DNA of 32,281 nt from Bacteroidia bacterium (GCA_035489505.1 DATHKF010000684.1:1-32281); one strand, 5' to 3'; shown: positions 820 through 32,281, counted from the first letter of the stretch. The notes: a model not told the origin generated them from the letters alone. Translations and numbers: made by a program.

Positions 820-968
820 TTAACCGCAGAGGCGCGGAGGCGCAGAGAAATTGGTTTGGCGCAGCCTGCAATGGTCGCTGAGCCTTTCATTGGTGCATAC
901 CGTAAACTCTGCGAACATTGCTGACTCTTTAAGTAATGTGCTCTGCGACTCCGCGACTCCGCGGTAAA
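820..968. repeat. Palindromic element, family C copy 1 (arms ACCGCAGAGGCGCGGAGGCGCAGAG / CTCTGCGACTCCGCGACTCCGCGGT)
   Basis: The 25-nt arms at 823-847 and 941-965 pair at 22 of 25 positions. The termini are the same as in the copy at 12427-12556. The element starts 2 nt after the E2 stop codon. Confidence 0.8.
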
Positions 969-1691: not shown

Positions 1692-1929
1692 GACAGTGTC
1701 TCAGTTTGAACATTTGCTATTTGACACGGCGACACGGCGCATTTTTACGGTATTTCTTATTCTAAGCCCGGGCGCTCACGGCGAGATAACGGTAACTTCA
1801 CTATAGAATGAAAGATTTCCGCTTGGCGGAAATACAATTGGTCTCGCCGTGAACGCGCGGGCTTAGAACGGGTTTTGTGCTTCTTTTAGCGCCGTGTCGC
1901 CGTGTCAAAAAGCAAAGTGAGACACTACC
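1692..1929. mobile_element. MITE-like nested palindromic element, family A copy 1
   Basis: The ends are GACAGTGTCTCAGTTTGAA... and ...GTGAGACACTACC. There is a perfect 20-bp inner inverted repeat, TTGACACGGCGACACGGCGC (1721-1740 / 1889-1908), and a third nested palindrome TTCTAAGCCCGGGCGCTCACGGCGAG. The 8-nt flanks are TAAAAAAC and AAAAAAAC. The interior is ~95% identical to 9699-9901. Confidence 0.6.
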
Positions 1930-2502: not shown

Positions 2503-3144
2503 TTATTCCTTCGCTTTCTTCTTTCGTTTTTTAGGTATCACCACCTTCACTTCCGAAGTCTGAGGCCCGAGCCGTTTGGGCCACCACGTTATTCCGGCTG
2601 AGAACGACATGGCCAATGGCGCTCCCGGCGTGAATCCTGCATTGACGTCAAATTCCTCCGACACTTTCCAATGCCAGGCAAATTCTCCGCCAATCGGAAA
2701 GATCTTCCATTGAACATCGCCGATGTTGCGCGAATGATAACGGTTGAAAAAGCCTTTGTCTTCGTATTCATCAAAGCGATTCCAGTCCTCGCGGTAGTAC
2801 AACAGCGGACCAAGTCCCAGCATGAAGCGGTGTTTCTTTTTCTCGAATACCAGCGCGCGGACTCCGATGTGCGTAAAGCCACCCCATCCACCTGAGCAAT
2901 CGGTAAAGAATCCCTGCATGCCGGTTACGCAGATAAGATCTTTGTACACGTAGTGATCAACAGACGCGAATCCCCCAAAGTTGAGAACGAATCGCGCCTG
3001 TTTGTCGAGCTTATACGGCTGTATACTCGCAGTCTGGTCACCAAACGGATGAATCGTCATTCCAAAATACCGGAATGAAAAACTCGTTTGCCCGCTTGCT
3101 TCCAGTACGAATACCAGGAAGAAAAAACAGAAGAGCTTTTTCAT
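2503..3144 (-). CDS. Secreted hypothetical protein, probably an outer-membrane beta-barrel
   Basis: The ATG at 3144 gives the signal peptide MKKLFCFFFLVFVLEASGQ. The mature part has alternating aromatic/Gly-rich strands. Its start overlaps the upstream stop (TAATG at 3142-3146). The longer ORF to 3267 overlaps the upstream gene, so I rejected it. Confidence 0.65.
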   Translation of the reverse strand: MKKLFCFFFLVFVLEASGQTSFSFRYFGMTIHPFGDQTASIQPYKLDKQARFVLNFGGFASVDHYVYKDLICVTGMQGFFTDCSGGWGGFTHIGVRALVFEKKKHRFMLGLGPLLYYREDWNRFDEYEDKGFFNRYHSRNIGDVQWKIFPIGGEFAWHWKVSEEFDVNAGFTPGAPLAMSFSAGITWWPKRLGPQTSEVKVVIPKKRKKKAKE

Positions 3145-3965
3145 TATTTCTTCAATAACCAGATGAGTGGTTCCAGGGCGGATTTCGCCAGGCGATGAAT
3201 CACATTGTACTTGCCGTATTTTTGCACAAACCCCGGCGACCAGCTGTAATACCAGCGCACAAACCATCTGCCCGCTCCTGATTTTTGCAACGTGTTATCG
3301 CGGAAACGACGGAGCACCCAAACTTCCGGCGCATCGTAACTTCCATACACCATCGTAGCGATGTAACAACCGCTGTCGCTGCCTGAACTGCCTGAATCAC
3401 TACCGGAACTGCCTGAATCGCTGCTTGAACTATCGCTGCTGTTGCCGGAACTGGTATTGCTGCTGTCTGCACTTTCTGCAGAAGCCCACACCGATACACC
3501 GATCAAACCGATCGTGAGAACGAGACCGATAAGGATCATGAGCAAAAGCGAAAGCGCCGACATGGATTGAATGAACGAAGCGCGGCCATCAAATCCCATC
3601 AAGGCAACCTGCTTGATGTTGTTTTTCGGAATGGCAACGAGCGTTGAATCCGACAGCGGAATATTTTCGTCCTGCATGTAGATGTTCATGTCGTTTTTGT
3701 GATGCTTGCTTTTTCCAGTGGTCAGCGCCGAAGAATCAACACGTACTGCGTAACCATACATTGTATCACCGGATGTGTACACATTGTTCACGCGGAATAT
3801 ACCGTCGGAGTTGTGCATATACACGTTGTACCCGGAGAGGTAATCTGCAATCTCATTATCACTGAAAAGAACTTCCGTAGGTTGTTCAACCGGTTTGTAA
3901 ACGCGGCAGGCACCCATTAACAAAACAAAAAACGTAATCGCGACAAATCGTAGCGTTGTTTTCAT
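3144..3965 (-). CDS. Lipoprotein with an internal TM helix, a Ser/Gly/Asp low-complexity linker and a C-terminal CYIATxVYGS...LRRFRD domain
   Basis: Lipobox LLMGAC. TM segment LSLLLMILIGLVLTIGLIGVSVW. Linker SSNTSSGNSSDSSSSDSGSSGSDSGSSGSDSG. C-terminus CYIATMVYGSYDAPEVWVLRRFRDNTL..WFVRWYYSWSP, which from memory resembles the 'CFI-box' C-terminal motif. Confidence 0.7.
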   Translation of the reverse strand: MKTTLRFVAITFFVLLMGACRVYKPVEQPTEVLFSDNEIADYLSGYNVYMHNSDGIFRVNNVYTSGDTMYGYAVRVDSSALTTGKSKHHKNDMNIYMQDENIPLSDSTLVAIPKNNIKQVALMGFDGRASFIQSMSALSLLLMILIGLVLTIGLIGVSVWASAESADSSNTSSGNSSDSSSSDSGSSGSDSGSSGSDSGCYIATMVYGSYDAPEVWVLRRFRDNTLQKSGAGRWFVRWYYSWSPGFVQKYGKYNVIHRLAKSALEPLIWLLKK

Positions 3966-6507: not shown

Positions 6508-6639
6508 AATGATTTGCTAAAATCTTTGTCGACTTCGATACAATTAACTGTTGTCACTTCGAGTGTCCGACGAAGGAGGAGGTATCGAGAAGCGACAACA
6601 GTTAATCACTCAGTCTGACAAAGATTTTAGCAAATCATT
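6508..6639. repeat. Palindromic element, family B copy 1
   Basis: The 110-nt core (6519-6628) is ~96% identical to 18438-18546, and the first 62 nt are identical. The copy-specific outer stem AATGATTTGCT (6508-6518) / AGCAAATCATT (6629-6639) is perfect. The right arm contains the TGA stop (6635-6637) of the DUF2723 gene. Confidence 0.85.
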
Positions 6640-9698: not shown

Positions 9699-9901
9699 GG
9701 CAGTGTCTCACTTTGCTTTTTGACACGGTCCGATAGCAATCGGGAGCGCATTTTTACGGCATTTCTTATTCTAAGCCCAGGCGCTCACGGTGAGATAACG
9801 GTAACGCGCCGTGAGCGCCCGGGCTTAGAACGGGTTTCGTGCTTCTTTTAGCGCCGTGTCACCGTGTCAAAATTATCAAATGTTCAAACTGAGACACTAC
9901 C
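9699..9901. mobile_element. MITE-like nested palindromic element, family A copy 2
   Basis: The ends are GGCAGTGTCTCAC... and ...CAAACTGAGACACTACC. The interior is the same as copy 1 at ~95% identity, but the short and long end types are swapped. The left inner arm is interrupted by the mini-hairpin CCGAT-AGCA-ATCGG (9730-9743). Confidence 0.6.
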
Positions 9902-12426: not shown

Positions 12427-12556
12427 TTCACCGCAGAGGCGCAGAGTCCATTGTTGGAAGTGAGCAAAGGTCGCGGAGGTTTTGAGATAGTGTAAAATAA
12501 AAAATGGCAGCGAATTTTCGCTGCCATTTTTTATTTCTCTGCGTCTCCGCGGTGAA
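12427..12556. repeat. Palindromic element, family C copy 2, filling the whole convergent gap
   Basis: TTCACCGCAGAGGCGCAGAG (12427-12446) pairs with CTCTGCGTCTCCGCGGTGAA (12537-12556) with 2 mismatches. It starts 1 nt after the pheT TAA and ends 1 nt before the stop of the TPR gene. Confidence 0.8.
12499..12532. terminator. Bidirectional intrinsic terminator
   Basis: AAAAAA-TGGCAGCGAA-tt-TTCGCTGCCA-TTTTTT: a perfect 10-bp stem flanked by A and T runs, between convergent genes. Confidence 0.85.
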
Positions 12557-17180: not shown

Positions 17181-17247
17181 CGTCATCGCGAGGCACGAAG
17201 CGATCCCATCTCTTAAAGAAGGGACTGCTTCGTGCCTCGCAGTGACG
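17181..17247. repeat. Palindromic element, family D copy 1
   Basis: CGTCATCGCGAGGCACGAAGC...GCTTCGTGCCTCGCAGTGACG. The reverse complement aligns with 23063-23132. It ends exactly at the TAA (17248-17250) of the next gene. Confidence 0.75.
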
Positions 17248-18429: not shown

Positions 18430-18554
18430 CAAATTCCAAAATCTTTGTCGACTTCGATACAATTAACTGTTGTCACTTCGAGTGTCCGACGAAGGAGGAC
18501 GTATCGAGAACGACAACGGTTAATCACTCAATCTGACAAAGATTTTGGAATTTG
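18430..18554. repeat. Palindromic element, family B copy 2
   Basis: The core at 18438-18546 is ~96% identical to 6519-6628. The copy-specific outer stem CAAATTCC (18430-18437) / GGAATTTG (18547-18554) is perfect. The element ends 2 nt before the hutU TGA. Confidence 0.85.
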
Positions 18555-22863: not shown

Positions 22864-22880
22864 TCCGGAGTAGGGAGTTC

Positions 22881-23044
22881 GGTAGTGTCTCAGTTTGGCC
22901 ATTGGGGATTTTTGAAAACCGCTTAAGCGGTTGAATGTTTAGGACTGTTCATTGCCGGGGGGCAATGAACCCGGTAAACCAGCTCAACGGTTTTAACCGT
23001 TTCCATGCCACAAATCTTAACTGATTTCAAACTGAGACACTACC
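22881..23044. mobile_element. MITE-like element, family A copy 3, carrying family E cargo
   Basis: Perfect 16-bp TIRs GGTAGTGTCTCAGTTT / AAACTGAGACACTACC, with a perfect 8-bp direct repeat GGGAGTTC immediately outside both ends (22873-22880, 23045-23052). Confidence 0.7.
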
Positions 23045-23062
23045 GGGAGTTCGGAGGCTAGC

Positions 23063-23132
23063 CGTCACTGCGAACGCTCTTCAGCGAAGCAGTCCCCTCT
23101 TTGAAGACGGGATTGCTTCGTTCCTCAATGAC
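23063..23132. repeat. Palindromic element, family D copy 2 (degenerate)
   Basis: CGTCACTGCGA...GAAGCAGTCCCCTCTTTGAAGACGGGATTGCTTCGTTCCTCAATGAC aligns with the reverse complement of 17181-17247. The left arm is disrupted. Confidence 0.6.
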
Positions 23133-23192
23133 ATTGACCCGACTCGCGCCTTCGCACCCCTTACTCCAAACTTATTTTACTACTTTTCACCC

Positions 23193-24103: not shown

Positions 24104-25045
24104 ATGAAACGACAAATCGTTTTGGTCTTCGTATTGCTGTTTTCTTCGGTACTGGCTTTTGCACAGCCGGCGGAAAAGAAAAACACACCCCAGGATTACA
24201 TTGATCTGTATAAGGACGATGCGATCCGCGAGATGCAGTTGTTCAAAGTTCCGGCGAGCATTACGCTTGCGCAGGGAATGCTTGAATCCGACAATGGGAA
24301 TAGCGCACTTGCTGTGTACGCCAATAATCATTTTGGAATCAAGTGTCACAAAGAGTGGACGGGCGAAACATATACACAGGACGATGACACGAAAGATGAA
24401 TGCTTCCGCAAATACGGAACGGTGTATGATTCGTACGTCGATCATTCCGAATTTCTGAAATCGCGTCCACGGTATGCGTCATTGTTTGAGTTGAAGCTCA
24501 CCGACTACAAAGGCTGGGCGAAAGGGCTGAAGTCGGCCGGTTACGCAACAGATCCGAAATACGCAGATCGCCTGATCGATATTATCGAACGGTATAAACT
24601 CCACGAGTTTGATAAACTGGAAGGACTTCCACCGGTAGCTGCAGAACCGAGGAAGACAGAAGGAAACAAAACAGTTTCAACGAATGTTTCCCGCCGCGAA
24701 ATTTACTTCAACAACAACATCAAGTATGTGATTGTAAAGCCCGGCGATACGTTCATGAAAATTGCGCAGGAGCTGGACATGGGTGTGTGGCAGTTGTACA
24801 AGTACAACGACATGAATAAAAACACCGTGCTCAAGCCGGGACAGATTCTTTACATACAACCGAAACGTCGCAAAGCAGAACCGGATAAACACCAGATGAA
24901 ACCGGGGGAGACTATGCACGATGTTTCTCAGAAGTACGGCATCAAGCTGAAGAAGCTTTATAAGTACAACGAGATGGAGCAGGGGACGGAGCCGAAGGCG
25001 GGGCAGGTGATCTATCTTCGAAAGCGGAAGCCAGTCAGGAAATAG
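24104..25045 (+). CDS. Secreted N-acetylglucosaminidase (FlgJ/mannosyl-glycoprotein endo-beta-GlcNAcase domain) with two LysM domains
   Basis: ASITLAQGMLESDNGNSALAVYANNHFGIKC...YDSYVDHSEFL is the glucosaminidase domain. The two LysM repeats are YVIVKPGDTFMKIAQEL...LKPGQILYI and HQMKPGETMHDVSQKYG...PKAGQVIYL. Confidence 0.9.
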   Translation: MKRQIVLVFVLLFSSVLAFAQPAEKKNTPQDYIDLYKDDAIREMQLFKVPASITLAQGMLESDNGNSALAVYANNHFGIKCHKEWTGETYTQDDDTKDECFRKYGTVYDSYVDHSEFLKSRPRYASLFELKLTDYKGWAKGLKSAGYATDPKYADRLIDIIERYKLHEFDKLEGLPPVAAEPRKTEGNKTVSTNVSRREIYFNNNIKYVIVKPGDTFMKIAQELDMGVWQLYKYNDMNKNTVLKPGQILYIQPKRRKAEPDKHQMKPGETMHDVSQKYGIKLKKLYKYNEMEQGTEPKAGQVIYLRKRKPVRK

Positions 25046-25216
25046 TGTCGGTATCAGTGTCAGTCAGGGCGTGCACGGATACTGTGCTTTCGTTTAACAA
25101 TTGCCTTCAAAAATTAACCACTCTCCTGTCTCTGTGATTAAATGGTGATGACCGTAAATAATGTCAGAGCCGCAGTCGTTGTTGATACGCCATGACACTG
25201 ACGCTGATACCGACAC
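25046..25216. repeat. Palindromic element filling a convergent gap (family F)
   Basis: GTGTCGGTATCAGTGTCAGTCAG (25046-25068) pairs with CATGACACTGACGCTGATACCGACAC (25191-25216); the outer 13 bp are perfect. It starts 1 nt after the TAG at 25043-25045 and ends 7 nt before the GATase stop. Confidence 0.75.
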
Positions 25217-25223
25217 TTTTTCA

Positions 25224-25829: not shown

Positions 25830-25911
25830 GGTAATGTCTCAGTTTTATTCAGGCCGCGAATTACACGAATTACGCTAATCACTCCTTAGCGTAATTCGTG
25901 TAATTCGCGGC
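25830..25911. repeat. Solo family-A end followed by a perfect 26-bp-stem hairpin
   Basis: GGTAATGTCTCAGTTT (25830-25845) matches the A TIR at 15 of 16 positions. GCCGCGAATTACACGAATTACGCTAA (25853-25878) and TTAGCGTAATTCGTGTAATTCGCGGC (25886-25911) are perfectly complementary, with the loop TCACTCC. Confidence 0.8.
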
Positions 25912-25943: not shown

Positions 25944-26651
25944 TTATTCCGCATCCTTCTTCCTTCCAAACAAAAACCGCATTCCGAAACTGAGATTGGC
26001 CGGCACGGTGCGTGCGTTAAAGCCTCTGTTCAATCCCTGGAACGTGAGGTGTAACGGAAATCCTGCGATAATGTCGAAGTGAAACACGCGACCTCCGATG
26101 CCCCACATGAAGAAAGGTTCGGTGAGCATGTAACTCGAACCGAGCCGATCGCCGGTATTGAGATACTGACCGGTGTACATGAAATAACTGGCTTTGAGTC
26201 CGAGCATCGCATCGCCTTTTACTTTCCAGAAGAGTTTGGCGCCGGTTTTTCCGGAATTGATCTGGATGAATGGACGAATAAAATGTCCCTGGTAATCGAT
26301 GTTCGAATATGTCGTGTCGTGATAACCCCAGTTGTTTCCCCAGCCAACTCCGGCCGCAAGAAAATCGCAGTGACTTTCTTTACTCCGGTATAAACCTACT
26401 GCGAATTCGTAATCTCTCGAGCGGTACCTGCCAAGTCCATTGGCATATTGTCCCATCACGGCAATGTGATTGGTTATCGACACGGAACCTTTGGCAGATA
26501 CGCCGGAGGTGCCAATATCACCGGCAACATTCACTTCACCGGCTTCTTTGAACAAAGCGGGATTCGCTGTGGGCATGTAATACCGGTATGAACCGCAGGA
26601 GGCGAAGAAGAGACAAACAACGGAACACAAAATAACCAGGCCAGTTCTCAT
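25944..26651 (-). CDS. Lipoprotein / outer-membrane beta-barrel-like hypothetical protein
   Basis: The ATG at 26651 gives MRTGLVILCSVVCLFFASC. The sequence has alternating beta-strand patterns and a C-terminal ...FGMRFLF. Confidence 0.65.
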   Translation of the reverse strand: MRTGLVILCSVVCLFFASCGSYRYYMPTANPALFKEAGEVNVAGDIGTSGVSAKGSVSITNHIAVMGQYANGLGRYRSRDYEFAVGLYRSKESHCDFLAAGVGWGNNWGYHDTTYSNIDYQGHFIRPFIQINSGKTGAKLFWKVKGDAMLGLKASYFMYTGQYLNTGDRLGSSYMLTEPFFMWGIGGRVFHFDIIAGFPLHLTFQGLNRGFNARTVPANLSFGMRFLFGRKKDAE

Positions 26652-26795
26652 ATCATCGTTTTTTTGGTTTGGATAAATGTGCTGAAAAATATTCACTTAA
26701 ACATCCCCCATTTGGGGGAGGAGTGTGTGATCGGGTGTTATCTGGTGTTGCTTAATAGGAACGCGGACCGCTCGCTGCGCTTGCGGCGCGGATTG

Positions 26796-27013
26796 AAAAG
26801 GATTGACGCGGATGATCGCTACGCGATCGGGATTACTTGCGAAACTTAATGGTACGCGGATGTCACCTTCGGTGACGCATAGAAAAAACGGATTGGAGCG
26901 GATGATCGCTACGCGATCGATATGAATGGTACACGGAACACGCAGAACTTCACGGAAACCATAAAACAAAATTCCGTGTCAATCTGTGTATTCCGTGCAT
27001 TCTGTGTACCATT
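26796..27013. repeat. Composite repeat region (family G)
   Basis: Perfect 22-nt direct repeat GCGGATGATCGCTACGCGATCG at 26808-26829 and 26898-26919 (90-bp period), each followed by AATGGTAC(G/A)CGGA (26848, 26925). AATGGTACAC (26925-26934) pairs with GTGTACCATT (27004-27013). Mini-hairpin GTCACC-ttc-GGTGAC at 26861-26875. Confidence 0.7.
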
Positions 27014-27100
27014 TTTCATTTCATCCCGAAGCATCAGGAGCGCGCAGCGATTCAAATCTGTCACAATCTGCTTGATCCGTTAAATCCGCGTTCTATTTGA

Positions 27101-27135
27101 TAAAAAAATCCCCTCTCGTTTTCACAAGAGGGGAT
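27101..27135 (-). terminator. Intrinsic terminator of the TSP3-OmpA gene
   Basis: The minus strand reads ATCCCCTCT-tgtgaaaacg-AGAGGGGAT followed by TTTTTTT, 30 nt after the stop. Confidence 0.8.
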
Positions 27136-27164
27136 CGTTTCACAAGTTCGCGATGACGTTTTAA

Positions 27165-29735
27165 TTATTTCTGATCCTCGATGATCAGCATCTCCACACG
27201 CCTGTTTTTCTGTCTTCCTTCAGGTGTTGTGTTTGGCGCAATTGGCCGCGTCTGTCCAAACCATTCGGTAATGAGGCGCTTCTCGTCAATTCCTTTTTTC
27301 ACGAGGTATGCCTTCACCGCTTTCGCACGTTTTTCAGACAGCTTCATGTTTGCCGGTGCTTTACCTACGTTATCGGTGTGACCAGTGATACGAAGTTTCC
27401 ACTCCGGTTTCTTCTTCATGAGTTCTGCAAGTTCATCAAGCGATGCAAACGATTCCGGTTTGATGATGTCTTTTCCTGATTCGAATTCGAGGTTGTCGAA
27501 TGCTTTCTTCAGGATCTCCTGTTCTTCTTTCGTCAATACAGGAACAACATCTTTCACTTCTTCTTTCTTCAGACCGTTACCGAGTGGCTTCGGAATATCG
27601 AAACGGAAGAGACCATCAGACTGGCTGCGCAATGCACGTTTCGGCAATCCGTTCACGATCACTTTTACTTCGTTCACACCAATCGTTTTGTCAGGATCGC
27701 CATCTAAACGGAATACGCAAATGGAATCCGCAGGAAGTGACTCGTAAGTAAAGCTTCCGTCTTTTGCCTGCTTGGCCGACTTCAGACTCTGACCAGCAAG
27801 GTCAACAAGGTTCAGGATTACTTCAGGACAACCTTCGTTCTCCACAGGACCTGGTTTCTCCGGACAGATGTCAATCTTATCCATCACACCGTCGCCGTCT
27901 TTATCCGGGCAACCTTTGAATTCAGGAAGACCTTTTTCATCCGGACAGTCATCTTCTTTGTCAATGATCTTGTCGCCGTCTTTGTCAGGACATCCGTTGA
28001 ATTCCTGCAAGCCCGGATCGTCCGGACATGCATCCTGCTTGTCGATGATCTGGTCATTGTCGCGGTCAGGACAACCGTTGAATTGTTTGAGACCCGGCTC
28101 ATCCGGACAAACGTCTTCAGAATCCTGAACGTGGTCACCGTCTCTGTCAGGGCAACCCAGGAATTCCCAGATTCCAGGTGTGTCAACACACTTGTCTTTC
28201 TTGTCAGACACTTTGTCTTTGTCGCGATCCTTCGGCTCTTTAAAGTGAAGCGGAATGCGCGTTCCAAAGTAGATGTTGGTCCCGTAGATGGTTCCTTTTT
28301 TGCCAAACAGCGATCCTAAATCCGTACTTCCTACGAAGAGCGGACCGACGCGGAGACAAGCGCCAACATTGAAATCTTTGTATTGGTTGTACGACATCGG
28401 TACCATGATGCCTACCCATTTGTAATCCCAGCGCGGAGTAAGTGCAACGTATGACAGATCGTGAACTTTGTTCGCATTTCTTTTCCATTGAACCGCGTAA
28501 GCAAACTGGAAGTTCACGTAAAAATCTTTCCAGATCTGGTAATCAACATCGCCTCTGAACGCGGTCGGCAAATTCACCCGGTACGTTTTAGATGTTTCTT
28601 CGAATACAAAAAGGGAGCGCAATGTATCATCAAGTGCCTGGATTGGAAAATCGGTAGTCTCCGGCATTGTATCCTGCAATTCGATATCGCGGAAATACCA
28701 GTGATCAATTCCGCCACTGAAGTTTCCGCTTCCTTCCGCCCTGTTGAATTTGATCCACCCGATATCGGTGATTGAAAATCCAGCCTTGACTTTGTACTTG
28801 GTTTTTGAACGCATCCAGAGATTGGTTTCTCCGTCCATGTCGTATTTGTAGTCCTGGTAATCCGGGCGCCACTCGTATGTGAAACCAATATCGAGACCCA
28901 ATCCAGGGTGGGCAAAAGCTTCGGAGTAGTTGTATTTGGCTGCGCTGTTGTCGCCGGTTCCATTCGGGAAATCGAAGTTTTTACTGTGGCCGTATTGCAC
29001 TTCTGAACCGAGGATCGTTACCGTATCGTTGTTGTTTGGTTCGTACTGCAATTTGTCGGCGTAAAAATACATGGAGCCCAAACCAAGTTCAAGTTTCGGA
29101 CGAATACCGACTTTCCAGAAGTTTGCACCGTCGTCTTTGATCACGCGTGCAAAACCGAAACCGATTTCGTGCCAGGTCATCATCTGGATACTGGCGTTGT
29201 TGTTTGTGAACGATGAATTCCACAGTACCGAATCACTGAAGTCACTGTAAAGAATATCCGCAAGCTCTGTTCCGATCCCGTCGATGTTGGTGATCATACG
29301 AAACTCTCCGGTAATGGAAAACGAATTCTTTTCATCGTGCGACCACATGAACGACAATGGAAGCATAACGCGTGTGCCCAAATACACCGAACGTGTATCC
29401 ACTCCGTCTTTCTTATGCACGTACATGTCCTGGAATCCGTCGTCTTCGAAAAGAGAAAATGCAGTAGTATCATTCCGGTAGGAGAGTCCCGCACCGATAG
29501 CAGACTTTCCTTTGAAAGCCGACTGGTCCATACCCAGGTAATTGTTCGTAAACCCGAAATCGATGGCGATCAAATTAACGTCCATTTTCATCCTATTGTC
29601 GGCAATGGAAGAAGGGTTGAAATCGATGCCGTAAACACCTGCATAATTGGTGTTGGTCAGCCCCATAAAGTTCTGGGCGTTCAGCGACGATGCAATAGAA
29701 AAGAATACCGCGAGGAGTGTAAGGACTCGTTTCAT
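27165..29735 (-). CDS. OmpA-family outer-membrane protein with thrombospondin type-3 repeats
   Basis: Signal peptide MKRVLTLLAVFFSIASSLNAQ, then a large N-terminal beta-rich domain. Four GCPDxDxDxxxDxxDxCPDxxG Ca-binding repeats follow. The C-terminal OmpA-like domain has RITGHTDNVG, LSEKRAKAVKAYL and NRRVEMLI. Confidence 0.92.
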   Translation of the reverse strand: MKRVLTLLAVFFSIASSLNAQNFMGLTNTNYAGVYGIDFNPSSIADNRMKMDVNLIAIDFGFTNNYLGMDQSAFKGKSAIGAGLSYRNDTTAFSLFEDDGFQDMYVHKKDGVDTRSVYLGTRVMLPLSFMWSHDEKNSFSITGEFRMITNIDGIGTELADILYSDFSDSVLWNSSFTNNNASIQMMTWHEIGFGFARVIKDDGANFWKVGIRPKLELGLGSMYFYADKLQYEPNNNDTVTILGSEVQYGHSKNFDFPNGTGDNSAAKYNYSEAFAHPGLGLDIGFTYEWRPDYQDYKYDMDGETNLWMRSKTKYKVKAGFSITDIGWIKFNRAEGSGNFSGGIDHWYFRDIELQDTMPETTDFPIQALDDTLRSLFVFEETSKTYRVNLPTAFRGDVDYQIWKDFYVNFQFAYAVQWKRNANKVHDLSYVALTPRWDYKWVGIMVPMSYNQYKDFNVGACLRVGPLFVGSTDLGSLFGKKGTIYGTNIYFGTRIPLHFKEPKDRDKDKVSDKKDKCVDTPGIWEFLGCPDRDGDHVQDSEDVCPDEPGLKQFNGCPDRDNDQIIDKQDACPDDPGLQEFNGCPDKDGDKIIDKEDDCPDEKGLPEFKGCPDKDGDGVMDKIDICPEKPGPVENEGCPEVILNLVDLAGQSLKSAKQAKDGSFTYESLPADSICVFRLDGDPDKTIGVNEVKVIVNGLPKRALRSQSDGLFRFDIPKPLGNGLKKEEVKDVVPVLTKEEQEILKKAFDNLEFESGKDIIKPESFASLDELAELMKKKPEWKLRITGHTDNVGKAPANMKLSEKRAKAVKAYLVKKGIDEKRLITEWFGQTRPIAPNTTPEGRQKNRRVEMLIIEDQK

Positions 29736-29777
29736 AGGAGGTGTGGTTAAGAAGGCTAAAGATATAAAAAATCGTGT

Positions 29778-29970
29778 GCGGGAAGCAGGGAAGAGGGGAC
29801 AGGAAGGCGGGGGTCAGGAGGCAGGAAGACAGGGGTTCAGGAGGCAGGGAAACAGGGATTCAGGGGGGCAGGAAAACAGGGATTCAGGGGGCAGGAAGAC
29901 AGGGGTTCAGGAGGCAGGGAAACAGGGATTCAGGGGGCAGGGAAACAGGAGGTCAGGAGGCAGGAATAGA
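29778..29970 (+). repeat. Purine-rich degenerate tandem array (unit ~22-24 nt, GCAGGRAAACAGGGRTTCAGGRG), upstream flank of the four-helix cassette
   Basis: About 7 units. A 45-nt block is exactly duplicated (29821-29865 = 29891-29935). Contains the G4-type run GGGG-N11-GGG-N5-GGG-N5-GGGGGG at 29831-29867. Confidence 0.9.
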
Positions 29971-30115
29971 GTTCGTTGCGGGGAAGAAAGATGTGGCGGA
30001 TAAAGGCGCGTGGAAACGTTTACAAACGACTACAAACGTTTACATCCGACTACAAGTACTTAAATACCGACTAGTTCCAGGGAAGGCAATTACCATTGCA
30101 AAAAATCAAAAAGTT

Positions 30116-30511
30116 ATGACACAAAACAAAGGTTACCGTTCGTTGATTGCCTACCAGAAATCTTTTAATCTGGCAATGGCCATTTTTCGTTTAACTAAAA
30201 AATTTCCAGCAGAGGAGAGATATGAGTTAACCAGCCAGATCAGAAGATCATCGAGGTCGGTTTGTGCAAACCTGGTTGAGGGCTATCGTAAAAGCATGTA
30301 TCCTAAACTCTTCATGAACAAACTGGTTATTTCAGACGGTGAATGCTCGGAAACGTTGCTATGGCTGGAATTTGCTGTGGCATGTGAATACATTTCTACC
30401 GAGGAATTTACCAAGTACGAATTGCTTATCGAAGAGGTCGGCAAATTGTTGGGGGCGATGATTAAAACGCCGGAGAGATTTGGAGCGATGCGGGGACGGG
30501 TAGCTAAGTAG
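30116..30511 (+). CDS. Four-helix-bundle protein (23S rRNA intervening-sequence protein / Avd-like family)
   Basis: 131 aa. YRSLIAYQKSFNLAMAIFRLTKKFPAEERYELTSQIRRSSRSVCANLVEGY...ECSETLLWLEFA is the canonical TIGR02436/PF05635 pattern. The upstream part of ORF 29774-30511 is only a translated tandem repeat. Confidence 0.88.
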   Translation: MTQNKGYRSLIAYQKSFNLAMAIFRLTKKFPAEERYELTSQIRRSSRSVCANLVEGYRKSMYPKLFMNKLVISDGECSETLLWLEFAVACEYISTEEFTKYELLIEEVGKLLGAMIKTPERFGAMRGRVAK

Positions 30512-30680
30512 GGCGGGTGGCAGGAAAGCAGGGGTTCAGGAGGCAGGGAAATCAGGAGGCAGGAAAAGCAGGTATTCAGGTAGCAGGAAATCAGGTGGCA
30601 GGAAAGCAGGTATTCAGGTAGCAGGGAGATCAGGTGGCAGGAAAGCAGGAGGCAGGTATTCAGGAGTTCAGGATGCAGGA
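30512..30680 (+). repeat. Purine-rich degenerate tandem array, downstream flank of the four-helix cassette
   Basis: About 8 units of GCAGGAAAGCAGGTATTCAGGTA / GCAGGRARATCAGGTG type on the same strand as the upstream array. It shares GGGGTTCAGGAGGCAGGGAA with that array. Confidence 0.9.
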
Positions 30681-30739
30681 ACTCTGAGAGCCGATCTCTC
30701 GCTCCCTGCCTCCTGAACTCCTGAATACCTGCCTCCTGC
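30645..30739. repeat. Long hairpin closing the cassette (29-bp perfect inverted repeat)
   Basis: GCAGGAGGCAGGTATTCAGGAGTTCAGGA (30645-30673) is exactly complementary to 30711-30739, and 5 further bp extend the stem. The right arm overlaps by 1 nt the TAG (30739-30741) of the minus-strand gene. Confidence 0.9.
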
Positions 30740-32281
30740 TACTGCAGCGAATACGCAGTCAGATACTTACCATTGATTCCTCCGATGACGGTCAGCCCAT
30801 TCTCGCCGTTCAGTTTACCAATACTAAACGCTGTTTGGCCCGGCATTGGGAAGCCTTCGGAATCGGCGCCGCCTTTATTGAGCAGGTGAATTTCGGAAGC
30901 CTGCGGACAAGTAATTCCGATGCGGATATCGTTGTCGCCGAAACGGAAAATGGTGGCACGGGTTTGTGCTGGTGATTCAAAACCGAAACTCATCGCCGTG
31001 AGTTTATCCTGGTTGAACACAATGAGTTTTTCCGGGGAAAGGAAAATGTATTCGAGACTTCCATCACCGTTGATGTCGCGGTATTCAAACCACGGTGTTG
31101 CATTGAAATCCAGGAAATGCAAACGTTCAAGTTCATCGGTGAATGTAAGCCGGTATACATTGCCCAATGAATCGGCGCTTACGATCCGGGTCCGCGACAA
31201 ATCTTTTCCCTGCTCCAGGAAAAATTGCGTGACCGGTGTGCCCAGTTGTTCTTTCAGAGTCAAACGTGTTGCTCCTTGCCGGTCGGTAATGTAAGTATGA
31301 CCGCTGCGATCAACAATCACCACGTAATCTTTTCCGGCGACAACCGTATGCTGCACAGGCGCAACAACAATATCACTGGTAACCGGAATTTTCCACCCGT
31401 CAACTTTCACACCTTTCGCAGTGTAGTTGTAGACTTTTTTGTCTTCGCATGCGATAAGTAAACGGTACTCGCGCGTGTTTTCATAATCCATCACGCGAAC
31501 TCCATTGGTGGCCGTTGCAGGAAGTTTTACCGGGAAAATGGAAATCGCATCTCCGTTGCGGTCCATGGCAAACAACGAATCGCGCGTGTTGAATACAATC
31601 TGCAGCTTGCCGTTTTTCAGCACGTCCACCTGTTGCACTTCGCTCATGATGGGCTGGCTCAGTTGTTTCTTCCAGAAAACCGTGCCGGTACTGCTCACGA
31701 GGTAAATTGTATTCGCATCGTCCTGTACAAAAATGTCCAGCCCTTTTGTGTTGTGATTCGTGAGCAACCACGGTTTGCCGCTGAACGTGGTATCGAGTTG
31801 CGTTTCCCAGAGCGAAGCAAAATTTTTCTTGGTCTGCGGATTATGACGAAGGAACGCATTGGTGTAATGAAGGTTTCCTTCGTCGATGTTGTATTGCAAA
31901 ACAATTCCGTCGAACCGTTTCAGCAAATCTGCGTGATGCGTAACATCTGCACGGAAACCGGTTTCAGCGCGCTCTTCGATCAGCCCTTGTGTTTTTGGAA
32001 CAGCTGCGTAAAACGTTACACTGGCTTCGGTAGCCATATTGGTGGCAAAGTCGGCGTAGCTGCGGTCTTTGCGCAGGGTACGTCCAAATTCTGCGGCAAT
32101 GATAAACGCGCGCACAGTATTTTCATCCGTTCCAAAAATTACGTAGTGACTGGTGATGGCATAAAACGCTTCGCGAAACTCGCTGAACAAGCCGCCGAAT
32201 GTAGCAGGAAGCATTTCCGGAACGGGTACCGAACGAACGAGAACTCCGGTGGAATCAAATGGCGGTGCAACTGATCCGGTA
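30739..32281 (-). CDS. Large hypothetical protein with a beta-propeller-like C-terminal region, 5'-truncated by the window edge
   Basis: The frame stays open from 32214 to the window end (...TGSVAPPFDSTGVLVRSVPVPEMLPATF...). It has repeated beta-strand blades and an FG-GAP-like loop DINGDGSLEYIF. I am not confident of the family; it may be DUF3352-like. Confidence 0.7.
   Translation of the reverse strand, partial: TGSVAPPFDSTGVLVRSVPVPEMLPATFGGLFSEFREAFYAITSHYVIFGTDENTVRAFIIAAEFGRTLRKDRSYADFATNMATEASVTFYAAVPKTQGLIEERAETGFRADVTHHADLLKRFDGIVLQYNIDEGNLHYTNAFLRHNPQTKKNFASLWETQLDTTFSGKPWLLTNHNTKGLDIFVQDDANTIYLVSSTGTVFWKKQLSQPIMSEVQQVDVLKNGKLQIVFNTRDSLFAMDRNGDAISIFPVKLPATATNGVRVMDYENTREYRLLIACEDKKVYNYTAKGVKVDGWKIPVTSDIVVAPVQHTVVAGKDYVVIVDRSGHTYITDRQGATRLTLKEQLGTPVTQFFLEQGKDLSRTRIVSADSLGNVYRLTFTDELERLHFLDFNATPWFEYRDINGDGSLEYIFLSPEKLIVFNQDKLTAMSFGFESPAQTRATIFRFGDNDIRIGITCPQASEIHLLNKGGADSEGFPMPGQTAFSIGKLNGENGLTVIGGINGKYLTAYSLQ

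What the first reader, a model, noticed from the sequence alone, without database searches (positions are those of the whole stretch)
29778..30739. Avd/IVS-type four-helix-bundle gene packaged as an opposite-strand cassette between same-strand purine arrays and closed by a 29-bp perfect inverted repeat
The 131-aa four-helix-bundle gene (30116-30511, +) lies between two minus-strand genes. Both of its flanks are degenerate tandem arrays with the G/A-rich strand on + (29778-29970 and 30512-30680). The only C-rich copy is the terminal arm at 30704-30739. This arm forms a 29-bp perfect hairpin with the adjacent array. Its first 14 nt, CCCTGCCTCCTGAA (30704-30717), are also exactly complementary to TTCAGGAGGCAGGG at 29835-29848 and 29905-29918 upstream of the gene, and at 30535-30548. 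A long-range helix could therefore bracket the whole ORF. That is the architecture of 23S rRNA intervening sequences, which carry this protein family in the loop of an RNase III-processed stem. The family also includes the DGR accessory protein Avd. Here there is no rRNA and no reverse transcriptase, so this looks like a free-standing IVS-like cassette that may be mobile or processed.
Basis: partly seen in the sequence, partly recalled or inferred. Interest (0 to 1): 0.72.

Follow-up and report, generated by a model that had tools for sequence, protein, structure and literature searches.

The report
IVS-like four-helix-bundle gene cassette
A small, conserved four-helix-bundle gene sits between two arrays of 7-8-base repeats that can pair with each other, which is the layout of the intervening sequences cut out of some bacterial 23S rRNAs but here lies between ordinary genes; the same layout surrounds most relatives of this gene in several phyla, and I found no paper that describes it.

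Summary
Window 30116-30511(+) encodes a PF05635/TIGR02436 four-helix-bundle protein. It is flanked by CAGG-core 7-8-nt tandem arrays (about 22 units upstream, 21 downstream). A single C-rich arm (30705-40) forms a 36-nt hairpin (30 bp perfect) and also pairs with the upstream array.

The layout is not specific to this locus. Of 80 homologous loci (Bacteroidota, Acidobacteriota and others), 82% have complementary arms beyond the control 95th percentile. The arms are heptamers (nDKCAGT upstream, the reverse complement downstream), always in the same polarity, and complementary in a locus-specific way. Six of seven cyanobacterial plasmid copies carry G-rich heptamer arrays, four with a convergent partner. 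A true 23S rRNA IVS (Azospirillum) has the same layout, and published Coxiella IVS data report heptamers, a stem and RNase III cleavage.

Four relatives with the same neighbouring genes lack the cassette. One has a gene-less heptamer hairpin in that slot.

Best reading: a free-standing IVS-type cassette inserted in a terminator slot. This copy belongs to an antisense-oriented subfamily with its own conserved promoter-like leader. RNA processing and any mobility mechanism are inferred, not shown. No strand-specific wobble signal was found. Novelty: new variant of a known kind.

The parts
29757..29764 (-). Promoter-like box TATCTTTA of the OmpA-like gene. It marks the edge of the inserted segment.
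   Evidence: The box is conserved in the window and in all four cassette-free relatives, directly upstream of the gene. Reading it as a Bacteroidota -7 element is an inference from established knowledge.
29786..29972 (+). Upstream array U: 22 tandem CAGG-core units of 7-8 nt, G/A-rich on the + strand. It is the 5' arm of the bracket.
   Evidence: TRF rows at 29809-29966. Unit parsing. Pairs with 30694-30738 over 45 nt at 80-82%. Copy number differs by +/-70 nt between otherwise identical contigs.
30010..30115 (+). Conserved leader: period-10 repeats (30014-30055, CGTTTACAAA type) and a promoter-like -7 box TACCATTG (30091-30098), 18 nt before the ATG.
   Evidence: TRF period 10/20. Blocks are conserved in five cassettes at different loci although synonymous sites are saturated. 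L004 and L088 carry the perfect TAGGTTTG at the same place.
30116..30511 (+). Four-helix-bundle protein gene (131 aa), PF05635 / TIGR02436.
   Evidence: PF05635 at 112.2 bits (cut-off 33.8). TIGR02436 at 107.8 bits (cut-off 24). PDB 2RLD/2GSC at E about 1e-10. dN/dS is about 0.1 or less against its closest relatives.
30521..30690 (+). Downstream direct array D1: 21 CAGG-core units of 7-9 nt, in the same orientation as U. Its last 36 nt form the 5' half of the local hairpin.
30644..30740 (.). Local hairpin: arms 30644-30679 and 30705-30740, with a 25-nt loop. It lies between the convergent 4HB gene and the 910-aa gene, and the arm touches that gene's stop codon.
   Evidence: 36 nt at 97% complementarity. 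Minus-strand RNA folds at -86.6 kcal/mol, z -12.9. No U-run follows on either strand.
30694..30740 (+). C-rich arm D2 (5 units read on the minus strand). It is the 3' arm of the long-range bracket and the only C-rich copy.
   Evidence: It closes the MFE and centroid folds with U.
27165..29735 (-). Neighbouring gene: DUF5723/OmpA-family protein (856 aa).
   Evidence: Pfam. Its orthologues were used to find the cassette-free sites.
30739..32281 (-). Neighbouring gene: 910-aa beta-propeller-like protein, cut by the window end. Its stop codon is at 30739-30741.
   Evidence: The full length comes from contig L001.

Best explanation
This is a free-standing copy of the element type known from 23S rRNA intervening sequences: a PF05635 four-helix-bundle gene carried between two convergent arrays of 7-8-nt repeats that are complementary to each other.

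The cassette occupies the slot between the stop codon of the 910-aa gene and the promoter of the OmpA-like gene. In relatives that slot holds nothing, or a small heptamer hairpin that looks like a terminator. The cassette was most likely gained in this lineage.

This copy belongs to a subfamily that sits antisense to its neighbours and carries its own conserved leader and promoter-like box. The protein is therefore probably expressed from inside the bracket.

Inferred steps:
- The 30-bp perfect hairpin (30644-30740) probably defines or protects the 3' ends of both convergent transcripts.
- In transcripts that read through the whole cassette, which here means the neighbours' strand, the G-rich 5' arm and C-rich 3' arm probably pair. 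That would fold the insert out as a long dsRNA stem, a substrate for RNase III as in rRNA IVSs, and so keep the insertion harmless to the host genes.

Shown: the anatomy, family-wide recurrence, fixed polarity, locus-specific complementarity, absence in relatives, and purifying selection on the protein.

Inferred: pairing in vivo, RNase III cleavage, terminator activity, and the way the cassette arrived.
For: Anatomy.

Folds: the long-range closing helix appears in both MFE and centroid. The local hairpin folds at -86.6 kcal/mol.

Family-wide bracket:
- 82.5% of 80 loci exceed the 95th percentile of displaced controls.
- AGT spacing of 7 nt occurs 221 times upstream against 9 in the control orientation; ACT spacing of 7 nt occurs 201 times downstream against 31.
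- Arrays of 4 or more units: 108 near the gene against 17 in about 360 kb elsewhere.
- A locus's own arm is the best partner in 23 of 78 loci, p 7.6e-26.
- Typical cassettes sit in co-directional gene strings with gaps of about 85 nt and fold with a closing helix.

True IVS with the same layout. The Coxiella IVS has heptamers, copy-number variation, a 28-bp stem and RNase III cleavage (PMC4990558).

Four relatives lack the cassette; one has a gene-less bracket followed by a U-run.

The subfamily occurs at different loci and shares a leader. dN/dS is about 0.1 or less.
Against: - Arm mismatches show no strand-specific wobble signature: 72 G:U against 68 A:C. RNA-level selection on one strand is therefore not demonstrated, and a DNA-level process could keep the arms alike.
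- In this copy the promoter-like box lies downstream of the 5' arm, so the gene's own mRNA may never form the long helix.
- The local hairpin competes with the long-range helix for the single C-rich arm.
- No U-run follows the hairpin.
- No transposase, recombinase or target-site duplication was seen.
- Copy-number differences between contigs could be assembly artefacts.
Confidence: 0.58

Rival explanations
1. The arrays are ordinary simple-sequence repeats of the heptamer class, made by replication slippage and kept alike on both sides by template switching between inverted repeats. They have no function of their own. The 4HB gene is an ordinary small gene that happens to lie in repeat-prone intergenic DNA.
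For: The upstream array differs by whole 70-nt blocks between otherwise identical contigs. Unit sequences differ from locus to locus and even within the closest subfamily. There is no strand bias in wobble-type mismatches. Heptamer arrays without any 4HB gene exist in the window and elsewhere. Over-representation of heptamer repeats in bacteria is documented (PMC4692102).
Against: Arrays are about 20-fold denser per base next to 4HB genes. Polarity is constant. The bracket persists at ffh|folD across at least four genera although synonymous sites are saturated in this family. The same layout occurs inside a 23S rRNA gene, where the stem is known to be cut by RNase III in another species.
Confidence: 0.17
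2. The arms act at the DNA level, as recombination or landing sites that let the ORF-plus-leader move between heptamer hairpins. The route could be homologous exchange between similar arrays, cruciform or hairpin intermediates, or an unidentified recombinase. RNA pairing would be a by-product.
For: Closely related cassettes (65-76% protein identity) sit at unrelated loci. The same slot holds a gene-less bracket in a relative. Proteins are 50-57% identical across phyla. The polarity is symmetric and no RNA strand signature was found.
Against: No recombinase or transposase lies next to the cassettes (and the gene tables). No target-site duplication or shared terminal sequence is seen; arm units differ between loci. 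Some cassettes have stayed at one site across genera.
Confidence: 0.13
3. The arrays are binding sites for the pentameric 4HB protein itself, one heptamer per subunit, in the manner of TRAP on its triplet repeats. This would give autoregulation or packaging of the flanking RNA or DNA.
For: The commonest arm length is 5 units, with a sharp drop above that. Solved homologues are pentamers (5 chains per entry; homopentamer stated in PMC4990558). The family has invariant charged and polar residues. Gene and arrays co-occur in several phyla.
Against: The repeat core differs (CAGG here, CAGT in the 65-76% identical relatives) without an obvious matching change in the protein. Arrays also occur without the gene. 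No binding data exist.
Confidence: 0.1
4. It is a remnant of a diversity-generating retroelement, with the 4HB protein acting as Avd.
For: There is a weak similarity to Avd models (bAvd 37.5 bits; NF033474 32.6 bits).
Against: Both scores are below their cut-offs (40 and 80). No reverse transcriptase and no template/variable repeat pair is present in the window. There are no phage or viral relatives.
Confidence: 0.02

Closest known systems
23S rRNA intervening sequences that carry an S23p/PF05635 ORF (Coxiella burnetii, Leptospira; Azospirillum lipoferum AZO_p2 fetched here as L098)
   Same: The ORF family is homologous. The ORF lies in the loop of a long stem made by terminal inverted repeats. 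The 5' arm is built from tandem heptamers with a CAG-type core (GACAGAT in Coxiella, GACAGAG/GACGGAG in L098). Copy number varies between strains. The G-rich arm is on the 5' side.
   Different: This copy is not in an rRNA gene; it lies between protein-coding genes. It is antisense to its neighbours and has its own promoter-like leader. Its arrays are much longer (22 and 21 units), and an extra direct array makes a local hairpin. The protein is under purifying selection, whereas the Coxiella ORF is reported to be decaying. RNase III cleavage has not been tested here.
Intergenic heptamer tandem repeats: STRR of Calothrix/Nostoc, GGGAATC of Xanthomonas, GGGGAYT of Nostoc, TAACTGA of Beggiatoaceae, cyanobacteria and Bacteroidetes
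   Same: They share the unit length (7 nt), the intergenic position close to the upstream gene's 3' end, frequent convergent pairs (70-75 in Xanthomonas), presence/absence between close relatives, and a CAGT/ACTG core in the TAACTGA class (PMC4692102; PMC4679880).
   Different: Neither of the two repeat papers read here mentions these genes ('four helix', '23S', 'intervening' and 'S23' do not occur in them). Here the arrays are the two arms around such a gene. The window's units are CAGG-core 7-8-mers.
Avd, the accessory protein of diversity-generating retroelements
   Same: It has the same four-helix-bundle superfamily fold and a pentameric ring.
   Different: The score is below the Avd model cut-off. 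There is no reverse transcriptase and no template/variable repeats.
Intrinsic terminators and REP-type 3' hairpins
   Same: The hairpin starts at the stop codon of the upstream gene and lies between convergent genes. The gene-less version in a relative is followed by a U-run.
   Different: No U-run follows in the window. The stem is far longer than usual, is built from tandem units, and encloses or adjoins a gene.

Membership tests
PF05635 / TIGR02436 four-helix-bundle protein (23S rRNA IVS protein, 'S23p') | Scores above the curated cut-offs of the family models | tested here: met
   PF05635 at 112.2 bits against 33.8. TIGR02436 at 107.8 bits against 24.
PF05635 / TIGR02436 four-helix-bundle protein (23S rRNA IVS protein, 'S23p') | Conserved Q-x-R-R-S-x-x-S...N-x-x-E-G-Y and D-x-E-x-x-E-T-x-x-W motifs | tested here: met
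   These residues are invariant or nearly invariant in the 24-sequence alignment that includes the window protein.
PF05635 / TIGR02436 four-helix-bundle protein (23S rRNA IVS protein, 'S23p') | Four-helix-bundle fold, pentameric ring | tested here: inconclusive
   The protein matches solved structures 2RLD and 2GSC by sequence (E about 1e-10, 5 chains each). No structure was predicted here.
23S rRNA intervening sequence (IVS) | Inserted in a helix (25, 45 or 9) of a 23S rRNA gene | tested here: not met
   No rRNA in the window. The flanking genes encode proteins.
23S rRNA intervening sequence (IVS) | Terminal inverted repeats that form a long stem enclosing the ORF | tested here: met
   45-nt arms at 80-82% complementarity. 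They close the MFE and centroid folds.
23S rRNA intervening sequence (IVS) | Tandem heptamer units in the 5' arm, with variable copy number | tested here: met
   22 units of 7-8 nt. Contigs differ by +/-70 nt. Compare Coxiella and L098.
23S rRNA intervening sequence (IVS) | Excision by RNase III | not testable with these tools
   This needs RNA end mapping or an in vitro cleavage assay.
DGR accessory protein Avd | Scores above the Avd equivalog cut-off | tested here: not met
   NF033474 at 32.6 bits against 80. bAvd at 37.5 bits against 40.
DGR accessory protein Avd | Adjacent reverse transcriptase and template/variable repeats | tested here: not met
   No RT domain among 23 window ORFs scanned.
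Heptamer simple-sequence arrays (STRR class) | Head-to-tail units of about 7 nt in intergenic DNA | tested here: met
   units are 7-8 nt. In relatives the spacing is sharply 7 nt.
Intrinsic terminator | G+C-rich hairpin followed by a U-run | tested here: not met
   The hairpin is present, but the scan found no terminator-like site and no T-run follows it.
Transposon / MITE | Near-identical copies elsewhere, target-site duplication, or a transposase | tested here: not met
   The closest relative is only 76% identical in protein. Arm sequences differ between loci. No transposase is nearby. Target-site duplication was not specifically resolved.
CRISPR array | Repeats of about 24-48 nt separated by unique spacers | tested here: not met
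   The units are 7-8 nt and contiguous, with no spacers.

The most novel reading that the evidence does not exclude
PF05635 genes bracketed by convergent heptamer arrays form a large, cross-phylum class of IVS-like elements that has gone undescribed. On this reading, rRNA IVSs are the special case that landed in rRNA hairpin loops. The long-unexplained heptamer arrays (STRR, GGGAATC, TAACTGA classes) are the arms or gene-less relics of such elements. The pentameric protein acts on the arrays, by binding about five heptamers, to promote their processing, maintenance or spread.
Probability: 0.2. Interest if true: 0.85.

Novelty: new variant of a known kind. Interest (0 to 1): 0.65.

Why it matters
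Three things have been described separately and left unexplained:
- the ORF-bearing intervening sequences of 23S rRNA;
- the very numerous 'four helix bundle / S23p' genes of Bacteroidota, cyanobacteria and other phyla;
- the over-represented intergenic heptamer repeats.

This locus and its relatives show all three as one architecture. That makes the origin of rRNA IVSs, and the function of both the protein family and the repeats, testable in ordinary cultivable bacteria. The tests would be RNase III dependence, protein-repeat binding, and gain or loss of cassettes.

It also gives annotators a rule. Short-unit arrays next to these genes are part of the element. They are not CRISPR-like arrays or assembly noise, although they do break short-read assemblies.

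Tried and rejected
- Rfam at gathering threshold over the whole window gave no match.
- PADLOC gave no defence-system match for the protein.
- tblastn of the protein against the window found no paralogue or pseudogene, so the gene-less brackets are not recognisable remnants.
- Phage records (tblastn) and IMG/VR viral contigs gave no relatives, so no Avd/phage control set could be built.
- An exact 17-mer from the array searched in metagenome contigs gave only single, scattered matches.
- The sigma-70 promoter and terminator consensus scan found nothing in 29600-30900.
- The G:U versus A:C mismatch test, meant to tell RNA-level from DNA-level constraint, came out even at 72:68. It is inconclusive.
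- The idea that the upstream array is an N-terminal coding extension (ORF 29774-30511 is open in frame) was rejected. The array period is not a multiple of 3, and contigs differ by 70 nt.
- G-quadruplex formation as the general mechanism was rejected. The window's upstream array has G-runs, but the common CAGT-type arms of relatives do not.
- I could not catalogue paralogues in the source genome or inspect its 23S rRNA genes. Only the window and short contig pieces are available.

Full report
OBSERVATION

The ORF at 30116-30511(+) encodes 131 aa and lies between two minus-strand genes. One is a DUF5723/OmpA-family gene (27165-29735). The other is a beta-propeller-like gene whose stop codon is at 30739-30741.

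Tandem Repeats Finder reports arrays at 29809-29966 (periods 23, 46 and 70; 85-90% matches) and at 30519-30680. Split at CAGG, they resolve into 22 and 21 units of 7-8 (rarely 9) nt.

CAGGAGGCAGG with at most one mismatch occurs 14 times, all between 29815 and 30738, against 0.19 expected. Only the two copies at 30705-30738 are on the other strand.

That C-rich arm forms a 36-nt, 97% complementary hairpin with 30644-30679, of which 30 bp are perfect. It is also 80-82% complementary over 45 nt to two registers of the upstream array.

THE GENE

The protein is a clear member of PF05635 (112 bits, cut-off 34) and TIGR02436 (108 bits, cut-off 24). It falls below the cut-offs of both Avd models. It matches the solved pentameric bundles 2RLD and 2GSC at E about 1e-10.

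The window holds no rRNA. No reverse transcriptase was found among 23 ORFs scanned.

Against its four closest relatives with DNA in hand, dN is 0.07-0.31 while dS is saturated. The ratio is therefore about 0.1 or less, which means the gene is maintained by selection.

THE SAME ANATOMY AROUND RELATIVES

I fetched 80 loci encoding relatives that are 50-71% identical. Most are Bacteroidota, with some Acidobacteriota, Anaerolineales, Ignavibacteria and a Scalindua.

Almost all show short tandem units ending in AGT upstream of the ORF and the reverse complement downstream. The numbers are as follows.

- The best local complementarity between the 400 nt upstream and the 300 nt downstream has a median score of 34.5, against 19 for 281 displaced controls. 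82.5% of loci exceed the control 95th percentile.
- Successive AGT are exactly 7 nt apart 221 times upstream, against 9 for the opposite orientation. Successive ACT are 7 nt apart 201 times downstream, against 31. The unit consensus is n-D-K-C-A-G-T.
- Arrays of four or more units number 108 within 450 nt of the ORFs and 17 in the remaining 360 kb or so.
- The complementarity is locus-specific. A locus's own downstream arm is the best partner of its upstream arm in 23 of 78 loci and among the best three in 36 (Mann-Whitney p 7.6e-26).

The polarity is constant, with the G-rich strand running 5'->3' into the cassette from both sides. Because this pattern is symmetric, it does not depend on which way the ORF points.

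Typical cassettes are co-oriented with both neighbours in 55 of 81 loci. The upstream neighbour is co-oriented in about 89%. Gaps are only about 89 and 82 nt, which leaves no room for a promoter of their own.

Two such cassettes fold with a closing helix from the stop codon of the upstream gene to just before the next start codon (L028 z -2.5, L074 z -7.7).

In Flavobacteriaceae a cassette sits between ffh and folD in at least four genera.

LINK TO TRUE IVSs AND TO CYANOBACTERIA

In the plasmid collection the protein hits 30 records, 28 of them cyanobacterial.

I inspected seven cyanobacterial loci.
- Four have G-rich heptamer arrays upstream and their complement downstream. In two Nostoc plasmids the unit is (A)GCAGGG, the same CAGG core as the window.
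- One has G-rich arrays on both sides in direct orientation.
- One has only a downstream C-rich array.
- One has only a trace.

The eighth locus, on Azospirillum lipoferum AZO_p2, is a 23S rRNA gene (Rfam LSU, 1108 bits). Its insertion carries a homologous ORF between TCAGAGGACGGATGACAGAGGACGGAGGACAGA and the complement of that sequence. The fold is closed by these arms (z -10).

The window's cassette therefore shares the defining anatomy of ORF-bearing IVSs, except for its location.

PRESENCE AND ABSENCE

Orthologues of the OmpA-like gene at 84, 82, 75 and 69% identity lie in the same gene order. Their intergenic regions are only 87, 131, 127 and 51 nt long, and none holds a 4HB gene.

The variable slot runs from the stop codon of the 910-aa gene to a conserved TATCTTTA box in front of the OmpA-like gene.

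One relative (L085) has a gene-less CAGT-type bracket in that slot. It folds as a hairpin followed by a U-run, so it is terminator-like (z -5).

Three other contigs of the same species are identical to the window, except that the upstream array is longer or shorter by one 70-nt block. This is either real variation or an assembly effect.

A SUBFAMILY WITH ITS OWN LEADER

The closest relatives (65-76% identity) are all antisense to both neighbours, like the window. They sit at unrelated loci: next to DUF3467, between pth and rplY, and next to bactofilin.

They share a leader of about 100 nt with period-10 CGTTTACAAA repeats. The leader ends in a TAnnTTTG-type box 17-24 nt before the ATG: TAGGTTTG in two of them, TACCATTG in the window at 30091-98. 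TAnnTTTG is the Bacteroidota -7 promoter element. That is established knowledge that I recall, not something tested here. In the window, exact copies lie just upstream of several gene starts.

Their arms are of the CAGT type, while the window's are CAGG. The arms therefore change faster than the ORF and the leader.

HOW IT MOST LIKELY WORKS

Shown: the anatomy, its recurrence, the fixed polarity, the locus-specific complementarity, the absence in relatives, and selection on the protein.

Inferred:
- The cassette was gained in a terminator slot.
- The protein is expressed from its own promoter.
- The 30-bp hairpin between the convergent genes sets or protects both 3' ends, although it lacks a U-run.
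- In read-through transcripts of the neighbours' strand, the G-rich 5' arm and C-rich 3' arm pair and fold the insert out as dsRNA, a substrate for RNase III as in rRNA.

On the + strand the thermodynamic fold also closes with the long-range helix. The promoter position makes it doubtful that this RNA exists.

One speculative reason for the fixed polarity is that a C-rich arm transcribed first would be exposed as a Rho loading site, whereas a G-rich arm would not.

WHAT WEAKENS THE RNA READING

Mismatches in 66 brackets are 72 G:U against 68 A:C. Nothing therefore says that one RNA strand is under selection. Slippage plus template switching between inverted repeats could keep the arms alike at the DNA level.

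Arrays also exist without the gene.

No recombinase or target duplication explains how the cassette moved.

The modal arm length of five heptamers, together with the pentameric protein, invites a binding model. However, the core differs between close relatives, which argues against a strict match.

LITERATURE

Full-text searches found papers on heptamer arrays:
- GGGAATC in Xanthomonas with 70-75 convergent pairs, and GGGGAYT in Nostoc (PMC4692102);
- TAACTGA in Beggiatoaceae, cyanobacteria and Bacteroidetes, with presence/absence between relatives (PMC4679880).

They also found papers on IVSs. None links the arrays to PF05635 genes or describes free-standing IVS-like cassettes.

A CRISPR-discovery paper lists '23S rRNA IVP' in the abbreviation key of a figure on CRISPR-associated genes (PMC10910872). 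If these genes scored as CRISPR-linked there, I suspect the flanking arrays are the reason.

Absence from this library is not proof that the link is unknown.

VERDICT

The finding is real, and its interpretation is largely right. It is a new variant of a known kind: an IVS-type element outside rRNA. The window's copy is an atypical member, being antisense, self-promoted and carrying very long CAGG arrays, of what looks like a large undescribed class.

Noticed in passing
window 822-846 / 941-964, and 12470-12550: Gene-less convergent arrays of 8-mers (CGCAGAGG/CGCGGAGG, then the complement) enclose 94 nt. The same unit type flanks a 20-bp perfect hairpin at 12495-12536.
   Followed up: partly
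window 1713-1916 and 9740-9870: Arms of GACACGGC x2 and the complement enclose 148 nt that contain a nested 27-nt palindrome (1760-1868). A second, shorter copy of the inner element plus the 3' arm lies upstream of pheT. This looks like a small repeated palindromic element.
   Followed up: partly
window 25039-25064 / 25197-25222, and 22880-22897 / 23028-23045: Two further gene-less brackets with 132 and 130 nt inside. The first has CAGT-type units (GTGTCGGTATCAGTGTCAGT), which is the type that flanks 4HB genes in other genomes.
   Followed up: partly
window 6508-6639 and 18430-18554: Two near-identical MITE-like elements: perfect 20-23-nt inverted arms ending in AAAATCTTTGTC around interiors of about 85 nt.
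   Followed up: no
window 17181-17247 and about 23060-23140: REP-like palindromes of the CGTCATCGCGAGGCACGAAGCGATCC type occur in two intergenic regions.
   Followed up: no
window 25853-25911: A perfect 26-bp hairpin built from two GAATTAC(A/G)C 9-mers per arm lies downstream of the GATase gene.
   Followed up: no
window 25944-27165: There are about 1.4 kb between the GATase and OmpA-like genes, where relatives have 126-300 nt. The stretch contains an unscanned 250-aa ORF (25944-26696, minus strand) and several short repeats (26700-27010).
   Followed up: no
window 29809-29966 compared with L001 and L002: Otherwise identical metagenome contigs differ by exactly one 70-nt block of the upstream array (one more, one fewer). 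This is either true copy-number variation or an assembly collapse.
   Followed up: partly
L085 2870-3000: At the orthologous site of a relative, a gene-less CAGT-heptamer hairpin followed by UUUUU occupies the slot that the cassette fills in the window. Heptamer hairpins may therefore serve as terminators.
   Followed up: partly
L008, L028, L060, L075 (and, by gene sizes, L010, L018, L037): Flavobacteriaceae of at least four genera keep a 4HB cassette between ffh and folD, co-oriented with both, with arrays filling the 33-117-nt gaps.
   Followed up: partly
L098 (Azospirillum lipoferum 4B plasmid AZO_p2, 13701-15430): This 23S rRNA gene carries an unannotated 4HB ORF inside an intervening sequence with heptamer-array arms. 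The PLSDB gene table, which does not list RNA genes, shows no feature there.
   Followed up: yes
80 homologous loci, arm lengths: The longest run of heptamers per arm is most often 5 and drops sharply at 6 or more. Solved members of the protein family are pentamers.
   Followed up: partly
window 3376-3431: A CTGCCTGAA-type repeat resembles the arrays but lies inside ORF 3144-3965 (minus strand). By eye it encodes a Ser/Gly/Asp-rich linker. It appears unrelated to the cassette.
   Followed up: no
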